Assembly: GCF_030384885.1 (NCBI RefSeq)
Contig: NZ_CP128613.1
Source: Escherichia coli
GTDB taxonomy: Bacteria; Pseudomonadota; Gammaproteobacteria; Enterobacterales; Enterobacteriaceae
Length of the DNA: 64,000 nt
Direction: 5' to 3' (one strand)
Below, piece by piece: positions 2,017-22,336 of this stretch. A model generated the notes under the pieces. The model saw nothing but the letters and a program-made list of their open reading frames with translations. It ran no database searches and was not told the DNA's origin. A program made the position numbers and the translations under genes. The first letter of the stretch is position 1, and every line of letters starts with the position of its first letter.

Positions 2017-2139
2017 TCACCAGGAGCCGCGGCTCCTTTGCGTATCCTTTTATGTCTCCTCACCGTCTGGTCGGTGTCTTGCTGAGACTTCTAACTTCCT
2101 GTTTTTGTTGGTGTTGTCCTTACACCGTCCAATCATGAT

Positions 2140-2183
2140 TGGTGGGCTGGCGGGAGTTGAACCCGCGTCCGAAATTCCTACAT
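2140..2183. repeat. Direct repeat of the ssrA 3' end (att site of the ssrA-integrated island)
   Basis: tggtgggctggcgggagttgaacccgcgtccgaaattcctacat matches the terminal 44 nt of ssrA at 16498-16541 with one mismatch. Confidence 0.85.
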
Positions 2184-2310
2184 ACTAATAATATATCTTT
2201 AAAATCAAAATATTCTATTATTTATCAATGTATTATGTTTATGTGGTGTTAAGGGGTTTATATGGGTTTTAGTTCTCTGCCGCCAAAATGCCGCCAAAAA
2301 AATTGAATGG

Positions 2311-2336
2311 TAAAACGCCAGTTCGTTGAACTGGCG
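2311..2336 (-). terminator. Rho-independent terminator of the dcd-like/thyX-like operon
   Basis: Perfect 9-bp stem cgccagttc/gaactggcg with 3-nt loop, followed on the minus strand by a T run; lies just 3' of the thyX-like stop. Confidence 0.6.
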
Positions 2337-2346
2337 AGATCTTGTC

Positions 2347-3114
2347 TTATTGTTTTATTATCTTAACGTGCGCCGTTCCTCCATTGACTTTTTCGAAATC
2401 TTGGAACAAGGCAGGGGCATCTTGAGTTACAATATCGTAAAGTTTTTCTGAAACTGTTCTCATTTCATAGTCACCCTGTATTGCTCCTCTCATTTCGAAG
2501 AAGTGTCGAATTGCGCGAGCATTTGCTGTGACGATTATTTTTGTCTCGGTTGCATTAGGCAATATAGAGCGAGAAGCGCTTCTTAAGGCCCGCATTTTTT
2601 CTTTTTTGTTCTCATACGATTGGTTTTCACGGATTTTTTTCAAGGATTGCTTATAAAAATCCAGACTACTTTCAATATGTTGGCACCATGACTTAAACAA
2701 TTCTGGGTCATTTTTTACTTCTATAGGGGCTACGAATTCAGCATCGGATTCATCATGATACTGTTGGGATAACTGGCTATATGAAAAACCAGCTCTATGC
2801 CGAACTAGCTGGTGTGTAAATGCACGAGATACCCCAGTAATTAAAAAGGTCCAGTTCAAATGTTCTAAGACACTTTCATGCCCTTGAATAATTAAATTGT
2901 TGATATATTGACTTGTAGTCCGTGGAGACTGCTTATCCTCTCCAAAAGACATATAACATAGCCTGCCAGCGGCCTCTACCAGAAGCTCAGCTTCGGTCGC
3001 CTGCCCTTTGCGAACCCATTGCAATGATGATGTGTTTAAAAAATCATCAAAAACATTACTTTCAAATGAAGGGTGTGATATGCATTTTACTGATAAATCA
3101 GAGATTTTTATCAT
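2347..3114 (-). CDS. ThyX-like flavin-dependent thymidylate synthase homolog (divergent)
   Basis: 255 aa. Contains EHLNWTF...HQLVRHRAGFSYSQLSQQY, matching the ThyX signature (RHR followed by a conserved Ser) as recalled from Thermotoga ThyX, plus an N-terminal AAGRLCYMSF block. It has a one-residue insertion after RHR and Gln where the SxRY Arg is expected. Start codon lies 2 nt after the upstream gene's stop; SD gggag. Confidence 0.7.
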   Translation of the reverse strand: MIKISDLSVKCISHPSFESNVFDDFLNTSSLQWVRKGQATEAELLVEAAGRLCYMSFGEDKQSPRTTSQYINNLIIQGHESVLEHLNWTFLITGVSRAFTHQLVRHRAGFSYSQLSQQYHDESDAEFVAPIEVKNDPELFKSWCQHIESSLDFYKQSLKKIRENQSYENKKEKMRALRSASRSILPNATETKIIVTANARAIRHFFEMRGAIQGDYEMRTVSEKLYDIVTQDAPALFQDFEKVNGGTAHVKIIKQ

Positions 3115-3116
3115 TT

Positions 3117-3902
3117 TTACTCCCGTATAGCTTTTGGGGTGCTTACTTTAGCATCAACCTTTGGTTCGTTTGATTTAGCATTTTTTAGTAATTCAACGGT
3201 GCTTTTTAGGCTATTTATTTCATTTTGTTGAACTTTTATTGTTAATTCAAGATCTTTTGTACTACTGACATTACTGGATACTATTTGAAATAAGAAAGGA
3301 ATTGCTAGGGTTATCAACGTTAGCATTAAGGCTGCTATCGCAATTATAAAGCCAGTTTTTTTCGCAATGATTTTATTGATTTCTTTCGGAAGTCGTTTAT
3401 CAAGTCCTGCAAAATCCTTTCCCATTCTAGAAAGTTGATCATCATCCAATTTATTTACGATTTTTCCTTGGTAACCTTTAGTCGGTATTATTGTTTTAAA
3501 TAATAACATTCGGGCTACTGCTGAATTTTGTGTCAATGAGAATGGTTCTTTTGACATATTTACAAGATATATTGAAATTATGCCATTATATCCAGGGTCA
3601 ATATGCCCTGGATTCGTCATGATAATTCCATTTTTTGATAGTGTGTTTCTTGGAAATATTACACCAGCTAAATTTTTTGCAAGTTGGAATTTTTCATTTA
3701 ACTCTAATATTACAGTTTCCCCTGGCATCAGGATATGGTTGTTACGTGTTTTTTTATTGTCTTGACAGTCTGGTATATGTATTGTTTTTACAGAGAGATC
3801 AATGCTTGCAGATTGAACTTTAAATGTTCCATTTAATACCGTTAATGGATCAAAAATGTTGCCTCGCTGAATTTCATCATTGATTTCTATTTCAGACAGC
3901 AT
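3117..3902 (-). CDS. dCTP deaminase/dUTPase-fold protein with C-terminal transmembrane helix and coiled-coil tail
   Basis: 261 aa. N-terminal ~140 aa carry Dcd-family motifs (SIDLSV; LMPGETVILE; GHIDPGYNGIISIYLVN; LTQNSAVARMLLF), comparable to the E. coli Dcd IDPGW-G region. The C-terminal ~110 aa contain a 22-residue hydrophobic segment (GFIIAIAALMLTLITLAIPFLF) followed by a heptad-like polar stretch. Confidence 0.7.
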   Translation of the reverse strand: MLSEIEINDEIQRGNIFDPLTVLNGTFKVQSASIDLSVKTIHIPDCQDNKKTRNNHILMPGETVILELNEKFQLAKNLAGVIFPRNTLSKNGIIMTNPGHIDPGYNGIISIYLVNMSKEPFSLTQNSAVARMLLFKTIIPTKGYQGKIVNKLDDDQLSRMGKDFAGLDKRLPKEINKIIAKKTGFIIAIAALMLTLITLAIPFLFQIVSSNVSSTKDLELTIKVQQNEINSLKSTVELLKNAKSNEPKVDAKVSTPKAIRE

Positions 3903-3928
3903 ATCAAAATCCTATATTTGTAAAGTTA

Positions 3929-4942
3929 TTATAAATTAGCCAGAGGGTTTTTTATTACTGCATCTTCAAGATGCTCTGGGGAAAAATGTGCATAAATCAT
4001 AGTCATTTTTATATCAGAGTGGCCTAAAATATCTCGTAAAACCAAAATATTACCACCATTCATCATAAAATGGCTGGCGAATGTATGGCGCAGAACGTGA
4101 GTGCATTGGCCCTCTGGTAACTCAATGTCAGCTCGCTTTACTGCTCGTTCAAAGGCTTTTCTGCAAGGAGTGAATAACTTCCCTCTGTTCTTAGGGAGTT
4201 CGTCATACAGATCCTGAGATATCGGCACGGTACGGTTTTTCTTGCCCTTAGTCTTGGTATAGGTGATCCGGTATTTCGATAACTGATGGCCCTGCAGATT
4301 TTCGGCTTCACTCCAGCGCGCGCCGGTGGCCAGGCATATTTTTGTAATTAAAAGTAGACTGGGGCTTTGAGAATCAGCACAGGCATCCAGCAGACGTTTA
4401 ATTTCTTCCGGGGTCAGGAACGACAGTTCACCCTCAGCAATTTTAAATGTTGGCAGCCCGGCAAGCGGATTGGGGGCTGACCAGTGGCCCAACTTTTTCA
4501 GTGTGCCAAAAACAGATGATAGGTTGCGCTGTTCAAGGTTTACAGTGCGGGGCTTAACGGGCGACATAAGCGTGCCCTCTTCATTTCGCACTTCACCTTT
4601 TAGCCGCGCTTCTCGGTATTTAGTAAAATCACCGGCTGTCAGCTCTGAGGCGATGGGATCGCCTAGACCATTACAGATAATTCTAAGTTTCGCCATGAGG
4701 CGCTTGGGGTCTGCGAGTGTTTGACCATACAGGGAATACCACTGCTCAATTAATTCTGATAGGTGTCGCCGATCTTCCTTTTCCCCCAGCCATGGCTTTT
4801 TGTTCACTTCTTCCATTGTGAAGCTTTCAAAAGCAATGGCTTCGCCTTTCGTAGCAAATTGCTTACGCACGCGCTTGCCATTGCGTCCATGGGGATAGCA
4901 CTCGCACAACCATTTACCGTTTGGCTGTTTTCTGACAGTCAT
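3929..4942 (-). CDS. int: Phage integrase, tyrosine recombinase (P2/186-type)
   Basis: 337 aa. Catalytic residues in conserved context: ATGARWSE (Arg), HVLRHTF (His-x-x-Arg), MIYAHF (Tyr). Directly downstream of the cI-like gene as in the coliphage 186 lysogeny operon. Confidence 0.85.
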   Translation of the reverse strand: MTVRKQPNGKWLCECYPHGRNGKRVRKQFATKGEAIAFESFTMEEVNKKPWLGEKEDRRHLSELIEQWYSLYGQTLADPKRLMAKLRIICNGLGDPIASELTAGDFTKYREARLKGEVRNEEGTLMSPVKPRTVNLEQRNLSSVFGTLKKLGHWSAPNPLAGLPTFKIAEGELSFLTPEEIKRLLDACADSQSPSLLLITKICLATGARWSEAENLQGHQLSKYRITYTKTKGKKNRTVPISQDLYDELPKNRGKLFTPCRKAFERAVKRADIELPEGQCTHVLRHTFASHFMMNGGNILVLRDILGHSDIKMTMIYAHFSPEHLEDAVIKNPLANL

Positions 4943-4944
4943 GT

Positions 4945-5577
4945 TTAGATACTCTTTATTACTTTGACTGCACGCCCAATAACTTCCACATCATCAGTAG
5001 AGCACTCGAAAGACGCTTCATCTTGATTTACTACAATCTTATTGCCGGGAATCCGCATGATTTTTGCAACAATAATCATTCCATCAATATTGATAAGCCA
5101 GAATCCATTGCTGACCTGTTTAATTGATTTATCGATGAGATAACAATTAGTAGGGGTTTCTAAGAACATCAATTCTTCATAATCTGCAGGTAATATGCTG
5201 TGGTCTAGGAAAATCTCTTCATCAATACTGAGTTGTCCATTCTCCAGGGTTCCTTTAGGAATAGCTGGAGTTATGAGTTTGGATAACGGTTTAATTGCTT
5301 GTTTGTTCTCATTATGAGAACTTTTCTCAGGCTCAGCTCCTCCTTTCATGCTTCCCTGTCCTGTAGCTAACCAAAGCAACGAAACACCGGTTTCTAGTGC
5401 GCACTGAATTATCCAGTCAGCAGGAAAGCTGTCACGTAACACTCTGTTTGCCATAGTGCTTTTTGAGACATTCAGGTGCTCGCTTAATGCCTGCTTAGTT
5501 GTGAATCCATAAGCCTCAAGCAGCCTTTCAATAGCTGCCTTACCTCCCGTATCGGAACCCATTCTGATGTTTAACAT
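4945..5577 (-). CDS. cI: Phage CI-type repressor (186 cI-like)
   Basis: N-terminal HTH region (LEAYGF...CALETGVSLLWLATGQG) resembles the coliphage 186 CI N-terminal domain; divergent from the apl-like gene. Confidence 0.65.
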   Translation of the reverse strand: MLNIRMGSDTGGKAAIERLLEAYGFTTKQALSEHLNVSKSTMANRVLRDSFPADWIIQCALETGVSLLWLATGQGSMKGGAEPEKSSHNENKQAIKPLSKLITPAIPKGTLENGQLSIDEEIFLDHSILPADYEELMFLETPTNCYLIDKSIKQVSNGFWLINIDGMIIVAKIMRIPGNKIVVNQDEASFECSTDDVEVIGRAVKVIKSI

Positions 5578-5698
5578 TGGTGATCTCCATTTGACAATCT
5601 TGAATCAAGATCGTAATGTCTTCATGTCTCTTGATGTGAGAGTTTAAGAGACGGGCTAAAACGAACTAACACGCACACAAAGTAAGAGATACTGCACT

Positions 5699-5941
5699 AT
5701 GAGTACTGATATTTCAATTCGTGTACCAAAAGAGATGGCTACGCCTGCAGAGTTCGCAGAGTGGGAGGGTATTTCCCGCGGCTCTGTTTACCAAAAAATT
5801 CACCATGGTCAACTTGCTAAGTACATGGTCAAGAAAGAAAAAAACAAAGGCCGCGTAAGCCTGCGTTATCTGATGTACAAAACCGATCAGGTCCGTGAAT
5901 CCCTCGGTCATTCCAACTTCCGCGTCATTGTTGGTAAGTAA
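5699..5941 (+). CDS. Apl/Cox-like small DNA-binding protein (excisionase/early repressor)
   Basis: 80-aa basic protein, first gene of the rightward early operon divergent from cI, by synteny with 186 apl / P2 cox. Confidence 0.5.
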   Translation: MSTDISIRVPKEMATPAEFAEWEGISRGSVYQKIHHGQLAKYMVKKEKNKGRVSLRYLMYKTDQVRESLGHSNFRVIVGK

Positions 5942-5973
5942 GTTCAATTATGGGAACTTTCTAAGGGGGCACC

Positions 5974-6483
5974 ATGTTTGATTACAAGATTTCCAAACAT
6001 CCGCATTTCGATGAAGCCTGTAGGGCTTTTGCACTGCGCCACAACCTGGTGCAACTGGCAGAACGTGCAGGCATGAATGTGCAGATTCTGCGGAACAAGC
6101 TGAACCCAGCTCAACCTCATTTATTAACTGCACCAGAAATCTGGTTGCTTACCGATCTGACTGAAGATTCAACGCTGGTAGATGGTTTTCTGGCTCAGAT
6201 TCACTGCCTGCCATGTGTACCGATTAATGAGGTGGCAAAAGAGAAACTGCCACATTACGTCATGAGTGCAACCGCAGAGATCGGGCGTGTCGCGGCAGGT
6301 GCGGTTTCTGGCGATGTAAAAACCAGTGCAGGCCGTCGTGATGCGATCAGCAGCATTAACTCTGTTACACGACTGATGGCGCTGGCTGCTGTTTCATTGC
6401 AGGCCCGTTTACAGGCTAATCCTGCGATGGCGAGTGCGGTTGATACCGTGACTGGCCTCGGTGCTTCATTCGGTTTGCTGTGA
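5974..6483 (+). CDS. cII: CII-like lysogeny establishment regulator (186-type)
   Basis: 169 aa, positioned after the apl-like gene; size and position match 186 CII as recalled. Confidence 0.5.
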
Positions 6484-6490
6484 GGTGCTT

Positions 6491-6787
6491 ATGCTGATGA
6501 AAGAACCATCATTTGCATCGCTCCTGGTAAAACAAAGTCCGGCAATGCACTACGGTCACGGCTGGATCATGGGTGAGGATGGTAAACGCTGGCATCCGTA
6601 CCGTTCACAAGATGAATTGCTGTCTGAATTGACCACGAGGAAACGGAGAAAGTCCAAATGTATGCGGCAGAAAATAAAGTGGTTTATCACTTTCGTTACA
6701 GAGGGGAGAATTATTCAGTACCTGAAGATGATTTGCTCTGTTGCTATCCGTCGTTGTCGGGCGATGGTAGCTACTTTTTCACGCTAA
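6491..6787 (+). CDS. Hypothetical prophage early protein
   Basis: ORF with SD gaggtg 4 nt upstream of ATG at 6491; overlaps the next ORF out of frame, so one of the two may be spurious. Confidence 0.3.
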   Translation: MLMKEPSFASLLVKQSPAMHYGHGWIMGEDGKRWHPYRSQDELLSELTTRKRRKSKCMRQKIKWFITFVTEGRIIQYLKMICSVAIRRCRAMVATFSR

Positions 6788-6882
6788 AGGATGGAACCTT
6801 TATACGTGGTGAAAAAGTACAAGAAGTGATGCGTATAAAGACATCACCTCTTGAACGTTATCGGCGAAATATTTATCGGTAA
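6658..6882 (+). CDS. Hypothetical prophage early protein
   Basis: 74-aa ORF with SD ggag upstream. Confidence 0.35.
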   Translation: MYAAENKVVYHFRYRGENYSVPEDDLLCCYPSLSGDGSYFFTLKDGTFIRGEKVQEVMRIKTSPLERYRRNIYR

Positions 6883-7121
6883 CGATCTATCAGTGTCTGT
6901 ATCAGATGAGTGAATTCTTGTTGTTTAACCGAACCTAAAGGAAGTTTGTTTAATTCTTCGCGGAGGAGCTCAAAAAATGCTGATTGATTTGCTGAGTCAG
7001 TTCGAAATAAGGAGTGGATCAGACCTGAAACAAGAATTCGTTGAACAGCAACCTCATCGCGAAGACTGGAGATCTCGTTTTCAAGTTGCTCTATACGCTC
7101 TCTTTCAACCGGGTTCAACAT
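6873..7121 (-). CDS. Hypothetical small coiled-coil protein, antisense to the early operon
   Basis: 82-aa ORF with heptad-like ERIEQLENEISSLRDEVAVQR; its orientation is opposite to the surrounding early genes. Confidence 0.3.
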   Translation of the reverse strand: MLNPVERERIEQLENEISSLRDEVAVQRILVSGLIHSLFRTDSANQSAFFELLREELNKLPLGSVKQQEFTHLIQTLIDRYR

Positions 7122-7202
7122 TGATGATTCCTTCTAGCTATCAATATGTTGGTAATGGATCATATCAAAAATTTTTTAGTAGATGTGTTGTGGGATGCAT
7201 AA

Positions 7203-7544
7203 ATGGCTATTGAAGGCACTGCGGCGACTGTTCCATTAAGCCCCGGTGAACGCCTGAATGGACTTAATCACATTGCGGAGTTAAGGGCGAAAGTTTTTGG
7301 CCTGAATATTGAGTCAGAGCTTGAGCGGTTTATTAAAGATATGCGTGATTCACGGGATATTAATAGCGAACAAAATAAACGGGCACTGGCTGCCATATTC
7401 TTTATGGCAAAAATTCCAGCTGAACGTCATAGCATCAGCATTAATGAGCTGACCACTGACGAAAAGCGGGAGTTGATTAAAGCAATGAATCATTTTCGTG
7501 CAGTGGTGAGCTTATTTCCCAGACGGCTAACCATGCCGAATTAA
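7203..7544 (+). CDS. Hypothetical prophage early protein
   Basis: 113-aa ORF in the early operon. Confidence 0.4.
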   Translation: MAIEGTAATVPLSPGERLNGLNHIAELRAKVFGLNIESELERFIKDMRDSRDINSEQNKRALAAIFFMAKIPAERHSISINELTTDEKRELIKAMNHFRAVVSLFPRRLTMPN

Positions 7545-7611
7545 CCAACTAATGAAATTAATGGCGTAAACCCGCCGGGCATCCCTTTATCTAAATTCAG
7601 GAGAATTGATT

Positions 7612-7845
7612 ATGCGTAATATTGAAACCCTCTCGACCAAAACCGGACCGGATGACGCAGGGCTTAATATTTTACTGACAGAGGCTCGTCTGGAAGAACG
7701 CCGGGCAAGGGCTGAAGCAATGGCAGCTCGCCTTGATAGCCTGGCGTGTCATATCACATCCCGCCAGCTAACCCACGTCGAAGCGGCAGAACTGCTTCGT
7801 GTGACTGCTGAAGCAATCCAGAACGAAGCGCAGGAGATCCACTGA
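7612..7845 (+). CDS. Hypothetical prophage early protein
   Basis: ATG at 7612 preceded by SD aggaga; 77 aa. Confidence 0.4.
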   Translation: MRNIETLSTKTGPDDAGLNILLTEARLEERRARAEAMAARLDSLACHITSRQLTHVEAAELLRVTAEAIQNEAQEIH

Positions 7846-8072
7846 TGGCTGATGCAATGGATCTCGTACAGCAGCGCGTTGAAGAAGAACGCCAACGCCA
7901 TATCCGTGCTGCCCGTGCCAAAACGCCGGGCGTGTCCCGCGTGCTTTGCATTGAGTGTGAAGCGCCAATTCCGCCAGCACGCCGCCGTGCCATTCCGGGT
8001 GTGCAGCTTTGCATTACCTGTCAGGAAATCGCAGAGCTGAAAGGCAAACATTACAACGGAGGTGCTGTATGA
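7845..8072 (+). CDS. TraR/DksA-family C4 zinc-finger protein (phage)
   Basis: CIECEAPIPPARRRAIPGVQLCITC: two CxxC pairs with the spacing typical of TraR/DksA zinc fingers, common in P2/186-like early regions. Confidence 0.65.
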   Translation: MADAMDLVQQRVEEERQRHIRAARAKTPGVSRVLCIECEAPIPPARRRAIPGVQLCITCQEIAELKGKHYNGGAV

Positions 8073-8926
8073 GCACCATCCTGAAATGGGCGGGAAATAA
8101 AACTGCCATAATGTCCGAACTGAAAAAACATCTTCCTGCTGGCCCGCGACTGGTTGAACCTTTCGCGGGTTCCTGTGCTGTGATGATGGAGACGGATTAT
8201 CCCAGCTATCTGGTTGCGGATATTAATCCTGATTTAATCAACCTCTATAAAAAGGTTGCCGCTGATTGTGAATCGTTTATATCTCGCGCCAGAGTTTTAT
8301 TTGAGATCGCAAACAGGGAGGTGGCTTATTACAACATAAGGCAGGAGTTTAATTACTCAACTGAAATTACTGATTTCATGAAAGCGGTATATTTCCTGTA
8401 TCTCAATCGTCACGGTTACCGTGGTTTATGTCGCTATAACAAGAGCGGGCATTTCAACATTCCCTACGGTAATTATAAAAATCCGTATTTCCCTGAAAAA
8501 GAAATTCGCGCATTTGCAGAAAAGGCCCAGCGAGCAACGTTTATCTGCGCCAGCTTTGATGAAACGCTGGCGATGTTGAAGGCGGGGGATGTGGTGTATT
8601 GCGATCCGCCGTATGACGGTACGTTTTCCGGCTATCACACTGACGGCTTCACTGAAGATGACCAGTATCACCTGGCATCTGTTCTTGAACATCGGTCATC
8701 AGAAGGACATCCGGTCATTGTTTCTAACAGTGACACATCCCTGATCCGTTCGCTGTATCGCAATTTTACTCACCACTACATCAAGGCAAAACGCAGCATC
8801 GGTGTGGCAGCTGGCGAGGGTAAATCAGCAACAGAAATCATTGCTGTTTCCGGGCCGCGCTGCTGGGTGGGATTTGATTATTCGCGTGGCGTGGATAGTT
8901 CTGCCGTGTACGGAGTACGTGCATGA
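8069..8926 (+). CDS. dam: DNA adenine methyltransferase (Dam-like, phage-encoded)
   Basis: N-terminal [11 protein letters not shown]...EPFAGS (AdoMet-binding motif) and the catalytic DPPY motif (VYCDPPYDG); start overlaps the stop of the upstream ORF. Confidence 0.8.
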
Positions 8927-11337
8927 GTCATGCCGATATGAACAACTGCTGCGGCTTTAACGAAGCTGCCGCATCGTTCTCATGGAACAGCCCGAAAAAG
9001 GCCATTAACCCTTATCTGGACCCGGCGGAAGTTGCGCCGGTTTCTGCGCTTTCAAACCTGATCACTCTGTACGCTACTGATAACGAGCAGGAACAACTGC
9101 GCCGCGAGGCACTGAGTGATCAGGTCTGGGAGCGTTATTTCTTTAATGAATCCCGTGATCCTGTCCAACGCGAAATGGAGCAGGATAAGCTCATTAGCCG
9201 GGCAAAGATGGCGCATGAGCAGCAGCGTTTTAATCCAGACATGGTCATTCTGACTGACGTCAACGCCCAGCCTTCCCATATCAGCAAGCCGCTGATGCAA
9301 CGTATTGAATATTTCAGCAGCCTGGGCAGGCCAAAGGCTTATTCCCGCTATTTGCGTGAGACGATTAAGCCATGTCTGGAACGACTGGAGCATGTACGCG
9401 ACAGCCAGCTATCTGCATCTTTTCGTTTTATGGCAAGCCATGAAGGGCTGGACGGTCTGCTGATCCTGCCTGAAATGAGTCAGGATCAGGTGAAACGCCT
9501 GTCTACCCTTGTCGCTGCGCATATGAGCATGTGTCTTGATGCCGCTTGTGGTGATTTGTACGCCTCCGATGATGTTAAGCCAGAAGAAATCCGCAAGACA
9601 TGGGAAAAGGTGGCTGCAGAAACCCTGCGACTGGATGTCATACCGCCTGCGTTTGAGCAACTCCGCCGGAAAAGAAACCGCCGCAAACCTGTGCCTTATG
9701 AACTCATTCCGGGTTCGCTGGCGCGTATGCTGTGCGCCGACTGGTGGTATCGGAAATTATGGAAGATACGTTGCGAATGGCGGGAAGAGCAGTTGCGTGC
9801 TGTCTGCCTGGTCAGCAAAAAAGCATCTCCCTATGTCAGCTATGAAGCCGTGATGCATAAACGTGAGCAGCGCCGTAAGTCGCTGGAGTTTTTCCGTTCT
9901 CATGAACTGGTGAACGAAGACGGCGACACGCTGAACATGGAGGATGTGGTAAACACCAGCAGCAGCAACCCGGCGCATCGCCGCAACGAGATGATGGCCT
10001 GTGTTAAAGGCCTAGAGCTTATCGCGGAAATGCGTGGTGACTGCGCCGTTTTCTACACCATCACCTGTCCGTCACGTTTCCATTCCACGCTAAATAACGG
10101 CAGGCCAAACCCGACCTGGACCAACGCGACAGTAAGACAAAGCAGCGATTATCTGGTCGGCATGTTTGCTGCATTTCGTAAGGCTATGCACAAAGCCGGG
10201 TTGCGCTGGTATGGCGTGCGGGTGGCTGAGCCGCATCATGACGGCACAGTTCACTGGCACCTGTTGTGTTTCATGCGCAAAAAAGACCGCCGCGCCATTA
10301 CTGCATTGTTGCGTAAGTTTGCCATCCGTGAAGACCGCGAGGAGCTGGGCAATAACACGGGGCCACGCTTTAAGTCTGAGCTGATAAACCCGCGCAAAGG
10401 AACGCCGACAAGCTACATTGCGAAATATATCAGTAAGAATATTGACGGGCGTGGTCTGGCTGGCGAGATCAGTAAGGAAACGGGTAAATCCCTGCGTGAT
10501 AACGCTGAATACGTTAATGCCTGGGCGTCTCTGCATCGTGTTCAGCAATTCCGCTTCTTTGGCATTCCGGGGCGTCAGGCTTACCGTGAACTGCGATTGC
10601 TGGCTGGTCAGGCGGCAAGGCAACAGGGTGACAAAAAAGCAGGTGCGCCGGTACTGGATAACCCGCGCCTTGATGCCATCCTGGCTGCTGCTGATGCTGG
10701 TTGTTTTGCCTCCTACATCATGAAGCAGGGCGGCGTACTGGTTCCCCGCAAATATCACCTCATCAGAACCGCTTATGAAATCAACGAAGAGCCGACCGCC
10801 TATGGCGATCACGGTATTCGTATTTATGGCATCTGGTCACCCATTGCAGAGGGCAAGATCTGCACTCATGCAGTGAAGTGGAAAATGGTTCGTAAGGCCG
10901 TTGACGTTCAGGAGGCGGCAGCCGACCAGGGCGCTTGCGCCCCTTGGACTCGTGGCAATAACTGTCCCCTTGCTGAAAATTTGAACCAACAGGAGAAAGA
11001 TAAATCAGCTGATGGGGACACCAGAACGGACATTACCCGCATGGATGACAAGGAGTTGCACGATTACCTGCACAGTATGAGCAAAAAAGAGCGCCGGGAA
11101 CTGGCTGCAAGGTTACGCCAGGTGAAACCGAAACGGCGTAAAGACTACAAACAGCGAATTACAGACCATCAGCGACAGCAGCTCGTCTATGAACTGAAGT
11201 CCAGGGGATTTGATGGCAGTGAGAAAGAAGTCGATTTGCTCCTTCGCGGTGGCAGTATTCCGTCAGGAGCAGGCCTGCGTATTTTCTATCGGAACCAGCG
11301 TCTGAAGGAAGATGATAAGTGGCGGAACCTGTATTAA
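8923..11337 (+). CDS. Phage replication initiation protein (P2 gpA-like rolling-circle endonuclease)
   Basis: 804 aa. HUH-type motif VHWHLLCF and active-site Tyr block [12 protein letters not shown], as in P2/186 gene A. Confidence 0.8.
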
Positions 11338-11429
11338 TTACGCGGGTTAACAATTCGTGCCCTTAATAATACCAGGCATATCAGGCTGATGAATGTAAAA
11401 AAACGTTTTACATCAGTAAGATTATTATA

Positions 11430-11449
11430 TACTGTAAATATAAACAGTG
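11430..11449 (+). promoter_or_regulatory. LexA (SOS) box upstream of small ORF plus dinI-like gene
   Basis: tactgtaaatataaacagtg: CTGT-N8-ACAG with an AT-rich spacer, ~40 nt upstream of the ATG at 11490. Confidence 0.65.
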
Positions 11450-11489
11450 GTTATCTATACAGTATTGCTTTGGTGTCATAGGAGGAAAG

Positions 11490-11678
11490 ATGCAGGACTA
11501 TTTTTTGGAGTCTTTGAAGCTCCAGCGCATTGATTTTTTTCTTAAGCTTGTAGCGGCTAGTGAGTGTAGTGATGAAGAGAAGGGGCTGGCTCTGCAGTGG
11601 GTTTCTGAACTGACAGATGAACTCATGGCAAAAATCAGAACCCACGAATACAACCGCTCAATGGATGTCATCAGCTGA
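11490..11678 (+). CDS. Hypothetical SOS-regulated small protein (possible Tum-like antirepressor position)
   Basis: 62-aa ORF with SD aggagg, immediately downstream of the LexA box; position analogous to 186 tum, but no recognised sequence similarity. Confidence 0.4.
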   Translation: MQDYFLESLKLQRIDFFLKLVAASECSDEEKGLALQWVSELTDELMAKIRTHEYNRSMDVIS

Positions 11679-11688
11679 GGTGACTTTT

Positions 11689-11922
11689 ATGCGCATTGAA
11701 ATAATGATCGATAAAGAGCAGAAGATTAGCCAGTCTACCCTGGACGCCCTTGAATCCGAGCTTTACCGCAATCTGCGCCCCCTGTATCCCAAAACGGTAA
11801 TCCGTATCCGTAAAGGTAGCTCTAACGGTGTGGAACTGACCGGACTGCAACTGGACGAAGAAAGAAAACAAGTGATGAAAATTATGCAGAAGGTGTGGGA
11901 AGACGACAGCTGGCTGCATTGA
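11689..11922 (+). CDS. DinI-family protein
   Basis: 77 aa, MRIEIMIDK...LDALESEL...KVWEDDSWL parallels E. coli DinI (MRIEVTIAK...IDALAGEL...ETWESADDWF). Confidence 0.7.
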   Translation: MRIEIMIDKEQKISQSTLDALESELYRNLRPLYPKTVIRIRKGSSNGVELTGLQLDEERKQVMKIMQKVWEDDSWLH

Positions 11923-12035
11923 TTTTGTCAATAGACGCTTGTTTTTACTAATCAAAAAGGGTTACATATGAGTGAGAGGCGATGTCAATCAGATATCGCC
12001 TTGTTTTTTGTCAAGAAAAGAATAATAGGCTAAAA

Positions 12036-12713
12036 ATGAAAATTAATAATGTAGCGTTACCAATATCTCTTGCTGTAATCCTAACTGGTTGCGTGCCACA
12101 TGCTTCTAACCGAAATATCACTGCTATTGAAGTGGTGAAGCCTGCTATTGGGCAAAGTGCTACCGCCTACATGGGCGATCCCATTATCACATCTGCTACT
12201 GGATTTAAAACGGACGTACTAGAACTTGGTGCGGCTAATGGTGCATTGTCTTCTATCGCTGCTGGTACATATTGCAGTGAGGGGAATGGAATTTACCGCA
12301 ATTATCATAACCCTCAAGCTGTTGCGTTAAAAAATCTCTATGGGCAAATCGGTAACTATGTTGATTATGTTAGTTACGATGCTGCAAAAAATGAGATATC
12401 ACCGCCAAATGGTACTTCTTATACTGCATCAGAAATTTCTATCAAACGTGTTCCTGATGGGCTGTGTCGAGTTAGTAACTCATTGGTTAAGACTATCGAA
12501 TACAATGGAAATGCAGGCGGTGTAATGAAGTTCACCTATCGTGAATTTGCAAACGATATGGCTCGTGCAGCATTTACAACAGATTTTTCTGTAGATTCTA
12601 AGGGAAGTGACGTTATCGCTTACAAAGGTGCCAAGTTCAAAGTGAACAAGGCTGATAACTCGTCTATTTCTTATACAATTATTTCTGGCTTTGACAAGGC
12701 TGTCACGTTCTAG
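12036..12713 (+). CDS. Prophage-encoded lipoprotein (moron)
   Basis: Signal peptide MKINNVALPISLAVILTGC with lipobox LTGC; the remainder is Ser/Thr/Asn-rich with no recognised domain. Confidence 0.6.
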   Translation: MKINNVALPISLAVILTGCVPHASNRNITAIEVVKPAIGQSATAYMGDPIITSATGFKTDVLELGAANGALSSIAAGTYCSEGNGIYRNYHNPQAVALKNLYGQIGNYVDYVSYDAAKNEISPPNGTSYTASEISIKRVPDGLCRVSNSLVKTIEYNGNAGGVMKFTYREFANDMARAAFTTDFSVDSKGSDVIAYKGAKFKVNKADNSSISYTIISGFDKAVTF

Positions 12714-12805
12714 GTTTCACGCTTACTGAGTATGTTACGATTTTGCACATTCTGCATAAACGCGCATGTCTATGCTGCATGAGATCGCATGATCGTTTGA
12801 GGATC

Positions 12806-12833
12806 TTTTGTGTTAAGGCCCGCCAGTTCTGGC
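12806..12833 (+). terminator. Rho-independent terminator after lipoprotein gene
   Basis: GC-rich stem gcccgcc/ggcgggc followed by tttt. Confidence 0.6.
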
Positions 12834-13038
12834 GGGCTTTTGCGTAGATCATGCAGGTGCATGAAAACCACTACATAAAGCGGGCAGGCGTGGCGGGGAT
12901 ACGAGCGCGCGTTATGACAAATAGATGATTAGCCTGATTTATTCACAGCTGTATAAATGATCACCTTGTAATTAGGTAAGTAATGTCTTCTATTATCATT
13001 GATTTGATAGGATTAATCTGTTTTTTGAGGATTAGAGG

Positions 13039-15375
13039 ATGATTGAAGAGGTAGTTATTGACAAAGTAGGCTCATATAATGGCCCTACTCAGCTTTTACA
13101 TGGGCTTTCTAAATTTAACTATTTATATGGAGCTAATGGTGCAGGTAAAACAACTATAAGTAAAATTATTAATGACCCTGAACAATATCCAACATGTCCG
13201 ATTAAATGGAAAAATAATATATCTTTAATAAGCTACGTATATAATAAAGATTTTGTTGAAAGAAATTTTAGTCAAGATAAAATTAAAGGTGTATTTACCC
13301 TTGGTAGCGATCTTAAGGAGGATGAAGAGAAATTAATATCTCTTGAAGAAGAAAAAAATAAGCTAATAGAATCTATTATAGCAAAGGAAAAGCTAATAGA
13401 TGGTGGTGATAATATATTAGGCGTTGTTAAACAAATCGAAGACCATGAAAAATCTTTTAAAGATTCATGTTGGAAGCAAAAAGTAAAACATGATAATGTG
13501 TTCTCAAAGGCTTTTGAGGGATTAAGGAATAGTAGTGAAAAATTTAAAGCTAGAGTGTTGGCTGAGTATGAAAATAACACATCAGAAGTTTGCTCAATAG
13601 CAGAGCTAATTGAGAAAGCAAAAATTGTTTTTTCTACTGAATTGACATCACATGTATCAATTACAATTCCATCCTTCAATGGGATAGATGATATTTTGAG
13701 TAGGGAGATTTGGAGTGAGCGTATTCTAGGGAAAAAAGACGTTAGTGTTTCAGACTTAATTACAATGCTCAATAACAGTGATTGGGTTAAGGAAGGTTTA
13801 ACATATTTCAGTAAATCTAATCCCAAGTGCCCATTCTGCCAGCAGGATGTAAATGATAATATATTTGATAATCTATCATCATATTTTGATAAAACATATG
13901 AGTTAAAAAAAAGAGAAATCGATGCATTGGTTTTACAATATGAACATCAACTTAATAATATCTTGCAGGCGATAGATGATATAAGGGCGATTAAATCTCC
14001 ATTCATAAATTATGAAGTGTTTGAGGATAAGGCTAAGATAGTATTATCTGAATTAAACAAGAATTTTGAATTGGCAAAAAATAAACGCAATTTTTTAAGT
14101 GAATCAGTTCATTTTAGTGACTTAAGTGAAGTTGTTGATGATTTTATTTCTTTTTTGAATGATTCAAATCTATTGATAGATAATAATAACAAAATACACA
14201 GTAATAGAAAGGTAGAGGCTAGTAATCTTTCTAATCAGATATGGGCATATATCGTAAAGGTGGAGTTAAAGTCTGAAATAACTTCTTACCGTAGCGAATC
14301 TGATAAATTTAATAGGAAGTTACAAGGGCTTAAATCTGGGTTAGAGGAAGACAAAAAGAAGTTAATGTTAAATGCTTCGGCTATTGAGGCAATTGAGTCT
14401 AATAAAACCAGTACTCTTCCAACTATTACAAAAATTAACAAGATTCTGGATTCTTATGGCTTCAAAAATTTTTACTTAAAACCCTCCGAAGATAAAAAGC
14501 ATTATATGATAGTGAGAGATAGTGGAGATAATGCTCGTACAACCCTTAGCGAGGGAGAAAAGACATTTATCACTTTTTTGTATTTTTATAGCCTTGTTAG
14601 AGGGAGTGATAATGCATCAGGTGTTTTAGATGATCGTGTTGTAGTATTTGATGATCCAATTTCAAGTTTAGATAGTGATATTCTGTTTATTGTAAGTTCG
14701 TTGATTAAAGATTTAATGGAGGATGTTCGTAAGGATGAAGGAAATATTAAGCAAATTATATTCCTTACACATAATATTTATTTTCATAAAGAGTTGACTT
14801 TTAATACTAAAAGATCCGGTAATCAAGCAATGAAAGAGGAGACTTTTTGGATTGTAAGGAAAAAAGGGAAGGTCTCATATCTTGAAAAGTGCGAATCAAA
14901 CCCAATAAAAACGTCTTATGATTTGCTCTGGTGCGAATTGAGAAGAACAGATATTAATAATAATACTATACAAAATACAATGCGAAGGATTTTGGAGAAT
15001 TACTTTAAGATATTAGGTGGGATGGATATTAGGAAGCTTGAATGTCATTTTTATGGTGATGAAAAAATCATATTTAAATCTTTAGTGTCATGGATTAATG
15101 ATGGTTCTCATTTTGCAGGTGATGATCTTTATATGAATTTAGATACGGAGTCTGTGCAAAAATATTTAATTGTTTTTCAGAAGATATTTGAGTGTAGTGA
15201 GCATACTGCCCATTACAAAATGATGATGGGTGAGTTTTATAGACCGTTAAATGAGTCACTTCATCTACAAGATGAGTTTGATATTGATGATAGTGCGAAT
15301 GATGAGTATGCTTCGTCAAAAATTGAGATAGAAGATGGAATAAACACATCTCTACATAGTAATACATATTTGTAA
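13039..15375 (+). CDS. RloC/PrrC-like ATPase with CxxC zinc hook (putative anticodon nuclease / abortive-infection protein)
   Basis: 778 aa, very AT-rich. N-terminal Walker A GANGAGKTT; long coiled-coil region containing CPFC; D-loop/Walker B-like VVVFDDPISSLDSD; C-terminal region with RRILENYF and downstream His residues, reminiscent of the PrrC/RloC Arg-Glu-His nuclease motif as recalled. Confidence 0.55.
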   Translation: MIEEVVIDKVGSYNGPTQLLHGLSKFNYLYGANGAGKTTISKIINDPEQYPTCPIKWKNNISLISYVYNKDFVERNFSQDKIKGVFTLGSDLKEDEEKLISLEEEKNKLIESIIAKEKLIDGGDNILGVVKQIEDHEKSFKDSCWKQKVKHDNVFSKAFEGLRNSSEKFKARVLAEYENNTSEVCSIAELIEKAKIVFSTELTSHVSITIPSFNGIDDILSREIWSERILGKKDVSVSDLITMLNNSDWVKEGLTYFSKSNPKCPFCQQDVNDNIFDNLSSYFDKTYELKKREIDALVLQYEHQLNNILQAIDDIRAIKSPFINYEVFEDKAKIVLSELNKNFELAKNKRNFLSESVHFSDLSEVVDDFISFLNDSNLLIDNNNKIHSNRKVEASNLSNQIWAYIVKVELKSEITSYRSESDKFNRKLQGLKSGLEEDKKKLMLNASAIEAIESNKTSTLPTITKINKILDSYGFKNFYLKPSEDKKHYMIVRDSGDNARTTLSEGEKTFITFLYFYSLVRGSDNASGVLDDRVVVFDDPISSLDSDILFIVSSLIKDLMEDVRKDEGNIKQIIFLTHNIYFHKELTFNTKRSGNQAMKEETFWIVRKKGKVSYLEKCESNPIKTSYDLLWCELRRTDINNNTIQNTMRRILENYFKILGGMDIRKLECHFYGDEKIIFKSLVSWINDGSHFAGDDLYMNLDTESVQKYLIVFQKIFECSEHTAHYKMMMGEFYRPLNESLHLQDEFDIDDSANDEYASSKIEIEDGINTSLHSNTYL

Positions 15376-15382
15376 TTTTATT

Positions 15383-15413
15383 GCAATTGCCAGTAGCAAC
15401 AATACGGTACTGG
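15383..15413. terminator. Bidirectional hairpin between convergent ATPase and portal-fragment genes
   Basis: 9-bp perfect inverted repeat ttgccagta...tactggcaa. Confidence 0.4.
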
Positions 15414-15424
15414 CAACTAATATT

Positions 15425-15964
15425 TTAGTTAAGCTCATATGGAGAAAATTCTATAAGTTTCTCCCCGAGCCATGCGTTTATTTCCATAAATCGTTTTTGC
15501 AAAGGAATTAATTCATTTATCACAAAAACCTTACTAGCCTTCTCCACATCCCCAAACCCCCCAACATTATTAGGCATTATCCCCATCATTTGCGGCGGCA
15601 CACGGTGTGCCGCCATCATGTCGTCCCGGCTCACGTTCTTGATATTCAGAAACTCATCCTTCGCCGCGACTTCTGACAACGGGATAATCTGAAGCCCGTC
15701 CTTTTTGCCGTTAGGAGAGTACATAAACAGGTTGCGGAAGTTGCCTGGCCCTTTGGCACTTTTCATTGCGTTGCGGAGGTTGTTCACATCTTCTTGGTTC
15801 TGTGCGGCATCGGTCATGTACATGATGAAACCTGCATGGCTGCCGTTGATGTAATACTTACGGCGGAACAGTGTGGCGGACTCGTTGAGCAGGGCTGACG
15901 GGATGGCAGAGAGATAACCTGGCAGGCCGTAGATCTCCTGGTTGATGTCCGGTTCCGCCCTTAA
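15425..15964 (-). pseudogene. Phage portal-like (P2 gpQ-like) gene fragment, 5'-truncated
   Basis: The reading frame stays open upstream of the first Met to ~15964 and then hits a stop with no start. Orientation and position (leftward, after the replication/cargo region) match P2 Q; the family assignment is from synteny and is tentative. Confidence 0.4.
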
Positions 15965-16153
15965 TCATCTCAACCATGCGTTACAGCTCGATCCCCGCTG
16001 TGGCGTGAAAAAAGACAAACAGCAGCTGGAGCGCAGACTGCGCAATGACAGCCGCTGACAGAACGTGCCCCCGCGCACGGGCGGCACGGGGTGGCGAAAG
16101 GCACAGCCACATCAAAACCCCGTCCACCGCCCTTTATTTCAGGAGAAAGCAGC

Positions 16154-16354
16154 ATGAAGTTTGTTGCGCCAGAACAGGCACCGGAACAGGCGGAAATCAT
16201 CAGAAACACGCCGTTCTGGCCTGATGTGGACCTGTCGGAGTTTCGCAGTGTCATGCGCACTGACGGCACGGTGACGCAGCCGCGTTTAAAGCAGGTTGCG
16301 CTGTCGGCAATTTCGGAGGTCAACGCACCGATACGACCATTTGCATTGATGTAA
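16154..16354 (+). pseudogene. Phage head-completion-like (P2 gpL-like) N-terminal fragment
   Basis: 66-aa ORF with SD aggaga; IIRNTPFWPDVD...PRLKQ...ISEVNA resembles my recollection of the P2 gpL N-terminus; truncated relative to ~170 aa. Confidence 0.3.
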
Positions 16355-16497
16355 ACAAAGTGAAGTTCTTCCATGTGAAACCTCTTTGCATGATTTCAAG
16401 ATGGCGACAGGCAAGATGGACGCAAAAGTCTGTCGCCATTTTGCCGCCACTACCAAAGAAAAAGGGGCTACGCTTTCACGTAACCCCTTGATTTATT

Positions 16498-16860
16498 TGG
16501 TGGAGCTGGCGGGAGTTGAACCCGCGTCCGAAATTCCTACATCCTCGGTACTACATGCTTAGTCAGTCTTTACATTCGCTTGCCAGCTGCGGACGGACAC
16601 GCCACTAACAAACTAGCCTGATTAAGTTTTAACGCTTCAACCCCAGGCAGGGCTTCCACGCGATCTCTTTTGGGTTTGACCTCTCTTGATCCCCGTCCTA
16701 AGAGCGGAGGCTAGGGAGAGAGGGCTCTAAGCAGGTTATTAAGCTGCTAAAGCGTAGTTTTCGTCGTTTGCGACTATTTTTTGCGGCTTTTTACGAGGCC
16801 AACCGCCCCTCGGCATGCACCTTGGGTTTCGCAAATCCCGTCGAATCCAGAATCAGCCCC
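16498..16860 (-). ncRNA. ssrA: tmRNA (SsrA)
   Basis: The reverse complement reads ggggctgattctggattcgacggg...gttcaactcccgccagctccacca, the E. coli tmRNA sequence, 363 nt. Confidence 0.95.
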
Positions 16861-17074
16861 AATGTGTAACGGTAAGTATACCAGATTCATGAGTGCCATG
16901 ACCAGCCTCAATGGCGTTATCGTTAAAGATTTAGCACCCGTGTAGCCTGATATTTATTCGATTAAGCAATGGGATGGCAACATTTGGGTCGGATGTGATA
17001 GCCAATAAGATGTTCATTCGCGCCGCCGGAGAGGGTGGCGCGGTGAGGAACTGGTCAATAATTGGAGTGCAGAT

Positions 17075-20658: not shown

Positions 20659-20684
20659 AGTTGTTTTCCTGTATGAAAAACCAT

Positions 20685-20726
20685 TACTGTTATTGTGTAC
20701 AGTATAAACTGGTTTTATATACAGTA
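20685..20726. promoter_or_regulatory. LexA boxes in recN promoter
   Basis: tactgttattgtgtacagta (perfect CTGT-N8-ACAG) and an adjacent imperfect box ctggttttatatacag. Confidence 0.7.
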
Positions 20727-20743
20727 AAGAGGCTGGCGTAAAA

Positions 20744-22336
<1,593 letters not shown>

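What the first reader, a model, noticed from the sequence alone, without database searches (positions are those of the whole stretch)
11430..11922. LexA-box-controlled small ORF plus dinI-like gene inside the prophage
A near-consensus SOS box (CTGT-N8-ACAG) lies ~40 nt upstream of a 62-aa ORF that is followed by a DinI-family gene, mirroring the SOS-controlled tum region of coliphage 186. The 62-aa protein is much shorter than 186 Tum as I recall it and shows no obvious similarity, so it may be a different kind of SOS-triggered antirepressor, or a trigger that couples DNA damage to the cargo genes.
Basis: partly seen in the sequence, partly recalled or inferred. Interest (0 to 1): 0.4.

Follow-up and report, generated by a model that had tools for sequence, protein, structure and literature searches.

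The report
Split tum antirepressor SOS operon
This is the well-known DNA-damage switch of Fels-2/186-type P2-like prophages (a LexA-repressed promoter driving a small antirepressor gene, tumA, and a DinI-like gene, tumB), so it is ordinary, not a new kind of trigger.

Summary
A perfect CTGT-N8-ACAG box lies at 11432-11447, 42 nt upstream of a 62-aa ORF (11490-11678). A DinI-family gene follows at 11689-11922.

The 62-aa protein is not a new kind of antirepressor.
- It is 98.4% identical to Fels-2 STM2728.
- A profile built from its homologues hits residues 6-48 of 186 Tum at E=4.7e-10.
- The DinI-like gene matches the C-terminal half of Tum (41% identity, E=3e-24).

So 186 tum is present here as two cistrons. 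PSP3 names them tumA and tumB, and the split is already described in the literature for Fels-2 and PSP3. The target is present too: a 186-type CI with no autocleavage domain (4945-5577, minus strand).

Similar DNA occurs in 1,124 of 5,426 complete E. coli genomes.

Small additions:
- The promoter carries two LexA boxes whose cores overlap by one base, as in colicin operons. This is conserved across Fels-2-like phages, whereas 186, PSP3 and ESSI2_ev129 show one box.
- TumA stays 84-98% identical while CI drops to 40-58%.
- The host "prophage" is a 14.3-kb remnant. It has lost its late genes but keeps att, int, CI, A and cos.

The parts
11407..11412 (+). -35-like hexamer TTTACA of the tum promoter (equivalent of 186 p95)
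   Evidence: Read from the sequence. TTTACA (variants TTCACA in ESSI2_ev129 and 186, TTCCCA in PSP3) lies at about the same distance from the first LexA box in all relatives, while the spacer sequence varies. The simple promoter scan did not list it because the -10 is weak.
11430..11435 (+). -10-like hexamer TACTGT, 17-nt spacer (alternative: TATACT at 11428-11433 with a 15-nt spacer)
   Evidence: Same layout as annotated in the 186 record, where the p95 -10 signal TACTGT is the first six bases of the LexA site.
11430..11449 (+). LexA box 1, TACTGTAAATATAAACAGTG (17/20 to consensus, perfect CTGT-N8-ACAG)
   Evidence: Conserved in every relative examined.
11445..11464 (+). LexA box 2, CAGTGGTTATCTATACAGTA (15/20). 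Its core 11447-11462 overlaps the core of box 1 by one base.
   Evidence: A second box at the same 15-nt offset scores at least 14/20 in seven Fels-2-like relatives. In 500465-1 the aligned sequence fell below the 14/20 reporting threshold of the scan. It is absent from 186, PSP3 and ESSI2_ev129.
11480..11485 (+). Shine-Dalgarno AGGAGG for tumA
   Evidence: AGGAGG is conserved upstream of the ATG in the Fels-2-like relatives.
11490..11678 (+). tumA-type gene, 62 aa: predicted LexA-controlled antirepressor of the 186-type CI
   Evidence: PHROG phrog_698, E=3.6e-38, function unknown. 98.4% identical to Fels-2 STM2728. Family profile hits 186 Tum residues 6-48 at E=4.7e-10. pN/pS 0.02-0.18. AlphaFold2 predicts a two-helix hairpin, mean pLDDT 85.
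11677..11683 (+). Shine-Dalgarno-like GAGGTGA for the dinI-like gene, overlapping the tumA stop codon
   Evidence: The gap between tumA and dinI is 10 nt here and 3-13 nt in relatives.
11689..11922 (+). dinI-like gene (tumB equivalent), 77 aa
   Evidence: Pfam DinI E=6.6e-23. 41% identical to residues 71-145 of 186 Tum, E=3e-24. 78% identical to PSP3 TumB and 100% to Fels-2 STM2726.1. Below the cut-off for the chromosomal DinI equivalog (42.7 against 111 bits).
11976..12012 (+). Terminator-like hairpin (11-bp stem) followed by a T-run: likely end, or partial end, of the SOS transcript
   Evidence: Positional analogue of t95a in 186.
4945..5577 (-). 186-type CI repressor, 210 aa: the presumed target of TumA
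   Evidence: Pfam Phage_CI_repr plus Phage_CI_C, with no Peptidase_S24 domain. Matches the 186 CI structure 2fjr at E=2.2e-26.
12036..12713 (+). Lipoprotein-like cargo gene (homologue of Fels-2 STM2726): a possible read-through member of the operon
   Evidence: phrog_1353, function unknown. Signal peptide with an LTGC lipobox read from the translation. No similarity to 186 Orf97.

Best explanation
This is the SOS operon of a Fels-2-type (186-like, Peduoviridae) prophage, with the tum gene present as two cistrons. Proposed mechanism: in undamaged cells, two LexA dimers occupy tandem boxes that overlap by one base, cover the -10 hexamer, and keep the promoter shut. DNA damage activates RecA, LexA cleaves itself, and the promoter fires. 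The 62-aa TumA, a two-helix hairpin homologous to the N-terminal half of 186 Tum, binds the 186-type CI repressor. That repressor has no autocleavage domain. Binding stops CI from holding its operators, so the early lytic promoter (apl, cII, replication genes) is derepressed. The co-expressed DinI-like protein, equivalent to the C-terminal half of Tum, binds RecA filaments and modulates the SOS signal. Transcription mostly ends at the hairpin at 11976-12012. Shown here: the sequence anatomy, its conservation, purifying selection, the homologies, and the presence of the CI target. Taken from the literature: 186 Tum is a LexA-controlled antirepressor, and Fels-2 and PSP3 have tum split with the upstream half carrying the antirepressor activity. 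Inferred: LexA binding, the TumA-CI contact, and the outcome in this element. Because this element is a remnant lacking late and lysis genes, that outcome would be derepression, excision and replication but no virions.
For: LexA box and promoter layout match 186 p95. The 62-aa protein is 98.4% identical to Fels-2 STM2728 and 100% identical to the copy in many Klebsiella and E. coli P2-like phages. The family HMM hits 186 Tum residues 6-48 at E=4.7e-10, and the multiple alignment shares near-invariant E7, R13, C26 and E40 with 186 Tum. The DinI-like gene matches the Tum C-terminal half at E=3e-24. The PSP3 record annotates tumA as 'similar to 5' end 186 tum; UV induction of prophage' and tumB as 'similar to dinI and 3' end of 186 tum'. 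The 186 record says full-length Tum 'inhibits CI DNA binding' and the short forms 'modulate SOS induction'. PMC3121763 states that Fels-2 and PSP3 have tum split in two and that the upstream PSP3 gene has the antirepressor activity. The CI here is 186-type without a Peptidase_S24 domain. Purifying selection acts on both genes. ESSI2-type phages keep a tumA homologue with a LexA box but no dinI, so the small protein is the conserved core of the module.
Against: No experiment on this allele or the Fels-2 allele could be read: Bunny et al. 2002 is not held. The PSP3 activity is a personal communication quoted second-hand. PSP3 TumA is not significantly similar to this family (E=2.1), so the functional transfer rests on homology to the 186 Tum N-terminus. 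TumA is 84-98% conserved among phages whose CI is only 40-58% identical. That is unusual for a specificity partner and requires binding to the conserved CI blocks. LexA binding and SOS induction are untested.
Confidence: 0.85

Rival explanations
1. The 62-aa protein is a different, new kind of SOS-triggered effector unrelated to Tum, acting on something other than CI.
For: Pairwise BLASTP finds no similarity to 186 Tum or PSP3 TumA. There are no Pfam, NCBIfam or PADLOC hits. RefSeq and PHROGs label it hypothetical or of unknown function. TumA does not co-vary closely with CI.
Against: The profile search gives E=4.7e-10 to the Tum N-terminus, aligned over 42 residues with shared conserved positions. 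Synteny and promoter layout are identical to 186 and PSP3. The literature already treats the Fels-2 gene as the upstream half of tum.
Confidence: 0.05
2. The module's main role in this element is to put cargo under SOS control: read-through from the tum promoter expresses the downstream lipoprotein gene, as orf97 is expressed in the 186 SOS operon.
For: The lipoprotein gene has the same orientation and starts 24 nt after the T-run. In 186, t95a is only a partial terminator and orf97 belongs to the SOS operon. The gene is conserved with the module in Fels-2.
Against: An 11-bp GC-containing stem with a T-run lies between the genes. The lipoprotein is unrelated to Orf97. The cargo after dinI differs completely among relatives, while tumA-dinI is constant. 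The large AAA_13 cargo gene lies beyond cos and is separated by 325 nt.
Confidence: 0.15
3. The module is a functionless relic, because the prophage has lost its late genes.
For: The element is a 14.3-kb remnant with only a portal fragment left. A related remnant in strain TUM12355 has frameshifted or truncated apl, fil and gpA.
Against: Promoter, both boxes, both Shine-Dalgarno sites and both ORFs are intact and 98-100% identical to those of complete phages. CI, int, apl, cII and gpA are full length here.
Confidence: 0.1

Closest known systems
Salmonella phage Fels-2 STM2728 / STM2726.1 (split tum)
   Same: Essentially the same locus: 97.9% DNA identity over 653 nt. TumA is 98.4% and DinI 100% identical. 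It has the same double LexA box, Shine-Dalgarno site, terminator hairpin and downstream lipoprotein gene.
   Different: CI is only 57% identical. Fels-2 is a complete phage, whereas the window element has lost its late genes. Box 2 differs at two spacer positions.
Coliphage 186 SOS operon (p95-tum-orf97)
   Same: Position directly after gene A. The LexA box starts at the -10 hexamer TACTGT. The N-terminal Tum module is homologous to TumA (E=4.7e-10) and the C-terminal DinI-like half to the dinI gene (41% identity). A terminator follows. The repressor is a 186-type CI.
   Different: In 186 the two modules are fused in one 146-aa protein, with internal starts giving DinI-like short forms. 186 has a single LexA box. 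orf97 is unrelated to the downstream gene here. None of the 66 representative homologues is a full-length 146-aa Tum-type protein, so the split form appears to be the common one.
Phage PSP3 tumA / tumB
   Same: The same two-gene arrangement after gene A, with a LexA box. tumA is annotated 'UV induction of prophage'. TumB is 78% identical to the DinI-like protein here.
   Different: PSP3 TumA shares only a short motif with this family (C-x6-LAL-x-LIA, E=2.1). PSP3 has a single box. Its tumA and tumB are in the same frame, separated by one stop codon plus one codon, whereas here the frames differ by +1. PSP3 CI is a longer, different protein.
Gifsy-prophage LexA-controlled antirepressors GfoA/GftA (Lemire et al. 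2011, PMC3121763)
   Same: A small antirepressor co-transcribed with a dinI homologue from a LexA-repressed promoter. The repressor is not cleaved. Antirepressors act in trans between prophages.
   Different: The gene order is reversed (dinI first), they occur in lambdoid phages, and the repressor family differs. Sequence relatedness to TumA was not tested here.
Colicin operon operators with two overlapping SOS boxes
   Same: Two LexA boxes whose cores overlap by one base. In colicin operons this gives very tight repression with no detectable basal expression (PMC2994835).
   Different: The context is a phage antirepressor promoter rather than a plasmid toxin gene. Cooperative LexA binding here is inferred, not shown.

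Membership tests
Tum / TumA LexA-controlled antirepressor of 186-like P2 phages | Sequence homology to the N-terminal (non-DinI) half of 186 Tum | tested here: met
   An HMM of 32 homologues hits Tum residues 6-48 at E=4.7e-10, 35 bits. It is the only non-self hit among 963 sequences. Pairwise BLASTP alone fails.
Tum / TumA LexA-controlled antirepressor of 186-like P2 phages | Location directly downstream of the gpA replication gene and directly upstream of DinI-like coding sequence | tested here: met
   gpA is at 8923-11337 (PF05840, E=7e-127), tumA at 11490-11678 and dinI at 11689-11922. The order is the same in 186, PSP3, Fels-2, SopEPhi, SEN8 and others.
Tum / TumA LexA-controlled antirepressor of 186-like P2 phages | Promoter with a LexA operator overlapping the -10 hexamer | tested here: met
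   TACTGT at 11430-11435 is both the -10-like hexamer and the start of box 1, as annotated for 186 p95. This is sequence evidence only.
Tum / TumA LexA-controlled antirepressor of 186-like P2 phages | A cognate 186-type CI repressor lacking a RecA-dependent autocleavage domain in the same element | tested here: met
   CI at 4945-5577 (minus strand) has Phage_CI_repr plus Phage_CI_C and no Peptidase_S24. It matches 2fjr (186 CI) at E=2.2e-26.
Tum / TumA LexA-controlled antirepressor of 186-like P2 phages | Binds CI and prevents operator binding; needed for UV or mitomycin induction | not testable with these tools
   Known for 186 Tum and reported for PSP3 TumA. There are no data for this allele.
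DinI family (PF06183) / TumB | Match to the DinI-like family profile above the curated threshold | tested here: met
   81.3 bits against a cut-off of 24.2, covering profile positions 1-63 of 63. phrog_189 'RecA filament binding protein DinI', E=1.5e-29.
Chromosomal DinI (NCBIfam NF007893 equivalog) | Score above the equivalog cut-off | tested here: not met
   42.7 bits against a cut-off of 111. It is a phage DinI-like paralogue, not the host dinI orthologue.
LexA operator (SOS box) | CTGT-N8-ACAG palindrome close to TACTGTATATATATACAGTA, placed in a promoter and conserved among relatives | tested here: met
   Box 1 scores 17/20 with perfect ends. The pattern is enriched (4 against 0.72 expected) and the recN operator in the same window serves as a control. 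Box 1 is conserved in 12 relatives despite divergent flanks.
LexA operator (SOS box) | LexA binding and SOS-dependent transcription | not testable with these tools
   Needs EMSA or footprinting and reporter assays.
Colicin-type double SOS operator | Two boxes overlapping by one base | tested here: met
   Cores 11432-11447 and 11447-11462 share G11447. The same 15-nt offset appears in seven Fels-2-like relatives. The description of colicin operators is in PMC2994835. Cooperativity was not tested.

The most novel reading that the evidence does not exclude
TumA may be a broad-specificity antirepressor that recognises the CI blocks conserved across heteroimmune Fels-2-like phages. Those blocks are the HTH/linker region and the last ~55 residues. 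On that reading, this defective 14.3-kb remnant would act as an SOS-triggered trans-inducer of other Fels-2-like prophages. The remnant still carries both att repeats, int, apl, CI, cII, gpA and an exact cos 19-mer, but has no late genes. It could therefore also behave as a helper-dependent, satellite-like mobilisable element.
Probability: 0.1. Interest if true: 0.5.

Novelty: already known. Interest (0 to 1): 0.12.

Why it matters
It matters little as a discovery. The split tum operon of Fels-2 and PSP3 is already in the literature and the phage records, and similar DNA occurs in about a fifth of complete E. coli genomes.

The practical value is for annotation. RefSeq and PHROGs still call the 62-aa protein 'hypothetical' or 'unknown function', and some records label it 'levan regulatory domain protein'. 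A profile links it firmly to the Tum N-terminus.

Two side observations could merit a small follow-up:
- The tandem LexA operator is lineage-specific and colicin-like, which predicts very tight, late induction.
- TumA is strongly conserved while CI diverges, which predicts cross-induction between heteroimmune Fels-2-like prophages.

Tried and rejected
- **Pairwise BLASTP.** The 62-aa protein found nothing against 186 Tum or PSP3 TumA, and PSP3 TumA found nothing against 186 Tum. This method is too insensitive for 60-aa helical proteins, so I replaced it with a family profile.
- **PSP3 TumA against the profile.** The match is only marginal (E=2.1), although it aligns on the same motif. I do not claim homology with PSP3 TumA from sequence.
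- **Programmed frameshift or read-through giving a Tum-like fusion.** Rejected. The relative frame of tumA and dinI is 0, +1 or +2 in different relatives, with gaps of 3-13 nt.
- **Hairpin 11667-11684 sequestering the dinI Shine-Dalgarno site (translational coupling by unfolding).** It is present here and in Fels-2, but the pairing is not kept in SopEPhi or SEN8. Left as unproven.
- **The downstream 243-aa ORF as an Orf97 homologue.** It has the same length by coincidence and no similarity.
- **Structure.** AlphaFold2 gives a confident two-helix hairpin. Foldseek against the PDB returns only generic helical hairpins, with no hit at E<=0.001. No PDB sequence relative exists.
- **Bunny et al. 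2002.** This primary Fels-2 lexA paper could not be read by PubMed id or PMC id.
- **Strict co-variation of TumA with CI.** Not seen.
- **AlphaFold model of a TumA-linker-CI fusion.** Not run, because the tool returns no coordinates or inter-residue confidence, so an interface could not be read.

Full report
**1. The observation**

- A perfect CTGT-N8-ACAG lies at 11432-11447, inside the 20-mer TACTGTAAATATAAACAGTG (17/20 to the LexA consensus).
- It ends 42 nt before an ATG at 11490. That ATG is preceded by AGGAGG and opens a 62-codon ORF ending at 11678.
- Ten nucleotides later a 77-codon gene runs from 11689 to 11922. The mechanical ORF start at 11617 is an upstream in-frame ATG.

The strict pattern occurs four times in the window against 0.72 expected, and no shuffle reached four. 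One of the other three hits is the operator in front of recN, a useful internal control.

The second gene is a DinI-family member: PF06183 at E=6.6e-23, above the curated threshold. It is not the chromosomal DinI equivalog.

Both genes are real coding genes. Among seven relatives pN/pS is 0.02-0.18, while about half of synonymous sites differ.

**2. What the region is**

The flanks identify a P2-like, 186/Fels-2-type early region:

| Feature | Coordinates |
|---|---|
| integrase | 3929-4942, minus |
| 186-type CI | 4945-5577, minus |
| apl-like | 5699-5941 |
| cII | 5974-6483 |
| dam methylase | 8009-8926 |
| gpA replicase | 8923-11337 |

The 653-nt tum region is 97.9% identical to phage Fels-2 and 98% identical to many Klebsiella and E. 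coli P2-like phages. The 62-aa protein is 98.4% identical to Fels-2 STM2728 and 100% identical to the copy in dozens of phage records. DNA similar to 11380-11925 occurs in 1,124 of 5,426 complete E. coli genomes. There it is annotated 'hypothetical protein' plus 'DinI-like family protein'.

**3. Relation to 186 Tum**

The 186 record annotates the p95 promoter, a LexA site whose first six bases are the -10 hexamer, and a 146-aa Tum. Full-length Tum 'inhibits CI DNA binding'. Shorter in-frame products 'modulate SOS induction'.

The C-terminal half of Tum is DinI-like. The window's DinI-like protein aligns to Tum residues 71-145 at 41% identity, E=3e-24.

A profile changes that:
- An exhaustive HMMER search found 66 representative homologues.
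- An HMM of the query plus 32 full-length homologues hits Tum residues 6-48 at E=4.7e-10. This is the only non-self hit among 963 decoy ORFs from the window, 186 and PSP3.
- The alignment shares the near-invariant E7, R13, C26 and E40.

So the 62-aa protein is the N-terminal module of Tum as a separate cistron. PSP3 has the same split, annotated tumA ('similar to 5' end 186 tum; UV induction of prophage') and tumB. Lemire et al. 2011 (PMC3121763) state that Fels-2 and PSP3 have tum split in two. They add that in PSP3 the upstream gene carries the antirepressor activity, citing a personal communication in Bunny et al. 2002. I could not read that paper. PSP3 TumA itself is only marginally similar to this family (E=2.1).

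**4. Mechanism**

The CI here has the 186-type HTH and C-terminal domains and no Peptidase_S24 domain. It matches the 186 CI crystal structure at E=2.2e-26. It should therefore need an antirepressor for SOS induction.

The most likely chain is:
1. LexA holds the promoter closed.
2. DNA damage removes LexA.
3. TumA is made. AlphaFold2 predicts a two-helix hairpin, mean pLDDT 85.
4. TumA binds CI and frees the early promoter.
5. The DinI-like protein modulates RecA filaments.

A hairpin with a T-run at 11976-12012 probably ends most transcripts, like t95a in 186.

The anatomy, conservation and homologies are shown here. LexA binding, the TumA-CI contact and the downstream effects are inferred.

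**5. Small additions beyond the known picture**

(a) *A second LexA box.* CAGTGGTTATCTATACAGTA (11445-11464, 15/20) follows the first, with the 16-nt cores sharing one base. The same 15-nt offset is seen in Fels-2, TUM12355, SopEPhi, SEN8, ST13-OXA48phi12.1, ST437-OXA245phi4.1 and MLG42, although the flanks diverge. In 500465-1 the aligned sequence fell below the scan's 14/20 threshold. 186, PSP3 and ESSI2_ev129 showed a single box in the scan, and only one CTGT-N8-ACAG box is visible in the ESSI-2 upstream sequence read by eye. Two overlapping SOS boxes are the hallmark of colicin operators, where they give very tight repression (PMC2994835).

(b) *TumA is more conserved than CI.* TumA is 84-98% identical among Fels-2-like phages whose CI is only 40-58% identical to the window's. 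The CIs do share two well-conserved blocks: the second half of the HTH region with its linker, and the last ~55 residues. A conserved TumA could bind there. That would predict cross-induction between heteroimmune relatives.

(c) *TumA can stand alone.* ESSI2-type phages carry a tumA homologue with a LexA box but no dinI, so the small protein is the core of the module.

(d) *The split form is the common one.* None of the 66 representatives is a full-length fused 146-aa form.

**6. Rejected ideas**

- A programmed frameshift or read-through fusion is unlikely. The relative frame of tumA and dinI differs among relatives.
- The hairpin over the dinI Shine-Dalgarno site is not conserved.
- The downstream 243-aa lipoprotein-like gene is unrelated to 186 Orf97 despite its equal length.
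- Fold and PDB searches were uninformative.

**7. Context noticed in passing**

The 'prophage' is a 14.3-kb remnant.
- It is bounded by 38-bp repeats of the ssrA 3' end, at 2146-2183 and 16505-16542.
- Only a C-terminal portal fragment remains of the late genes.
- It keeps an exact copy of the 19-mer annotated as the SEN8 cos site, at 12887-12905.
- No complete E. coli genome holds 80% of 2000-17000 in one place, and a differently decayed relative exists in strain TUM12355. It therefore looks like a one-off decay product.
- Its cargo includes a PDC-S06 AAA_13 ATPase and a thyX plus dCTP-deaminase-like pair next to int.

**8. Verdict**

The finding is already known, and interest is low.

Noticed in passing
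window 2146-16542: The P2-like 'prophage' is a 14.3-kb remnant at ssrA. 38-bp direct repeats lie at 2146-2183 and 16505-16542. The early region is intact (int, CI, apl, cII, dam, gpA, tumA, dinI). Only a C-terminal portal fragment (15425-15823, minus strand) remains, and there are no capsid, tail or lysis genes. No complete E. coli genome has 80% or more of 2000-17000 in one place.
   Followed up: partly
window 12887-12905: An exact match to the 19-mer annotated as the putative cos site of Salmonella phage SEN8 (GGCGTGGCGGGGATACGAG). It lies between the lipoprotein gene and the AAA_13 gene, so the remnant keeps a packaging site together with att, int and the replicase.
   Followed up: partly
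window 13039-15375: A 778-aa AAA_13 ATPase (PF13166, E=5.8e-164) matches the PADLOC candidate defence family PDC-S06 at E=1.5e-266. It sits in the variable cargo slot between cos and the portal gene.
   Followed up: partly
window 2347-3902 (minus strand): A thyX (Thy1, E=2.6e-48) and a 261-aa dCTP-deaminase/dUTPase-like protein with a C-terminal extension lie between attR and int. Among E. coli genomes matching the wider 2000-17000 query, RefSeq lists an 'anti-phage dCTP deaminase' among the annotated features, though the TUM12355 homologue of this gene is named only 'dCTP deaminase domain-containing protein'. PADLOC 2.0 has no hit.
   Followed up: partly
window 20660-20745: The recN promoter carries its LexA boxes (TACTGTATATAAAACCAGTT, TACTGTACACAATAACAGTA). 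It is a bona fide SOS operator in the same window and served as a control for the pattern search.
   Followed up: yes
window 48064-48079 and 58386-58401: Two further exact CTGT-N8-ACAG matches (CTGTAACGGCAGACAG, CTGTTTTGATAGACAG). Their spacers are less AT-rich. Their context was not examined.
   Followed up: no
L004 9249-9330, L007, L008, L009, L003 (downstream of dinI in relatives): In SopEPhi, SEN8, ST13phi12.1, ST437phi4.1, MLG42 and PSP3 the dinI stop is followed by a long, strong stem-loop. Next comes a conserved motif, GGTTGAACAAC(G/T)(A/C)G...GGCGAGGC(A/G)TTAG (SEN8 reads GTAGCGAGGCG). This may be a terminator plus the boundary of the cargo hotspot. The window and Fels-2 have a different sequence there.
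   Followed up: no
window 117-1979: The C-terminal part of an autotransporter-like protein, with PDPK/PDPT repeats and a beta-barrel-like C-terminus, lies just outside the left att repeat. This was read from the translation only.
   Followed up: no
phage records H15, H17 (MK416009, MK422454): Some Klebsiella phage records label the TumA homologue 'levan regulatory domain protein'. 500465-1 and ST437phi4.1 annotate N-terminally extended versions of tumA, and 500465-1 also of dinI. These look like annotation artefacts.
   Followed up: no
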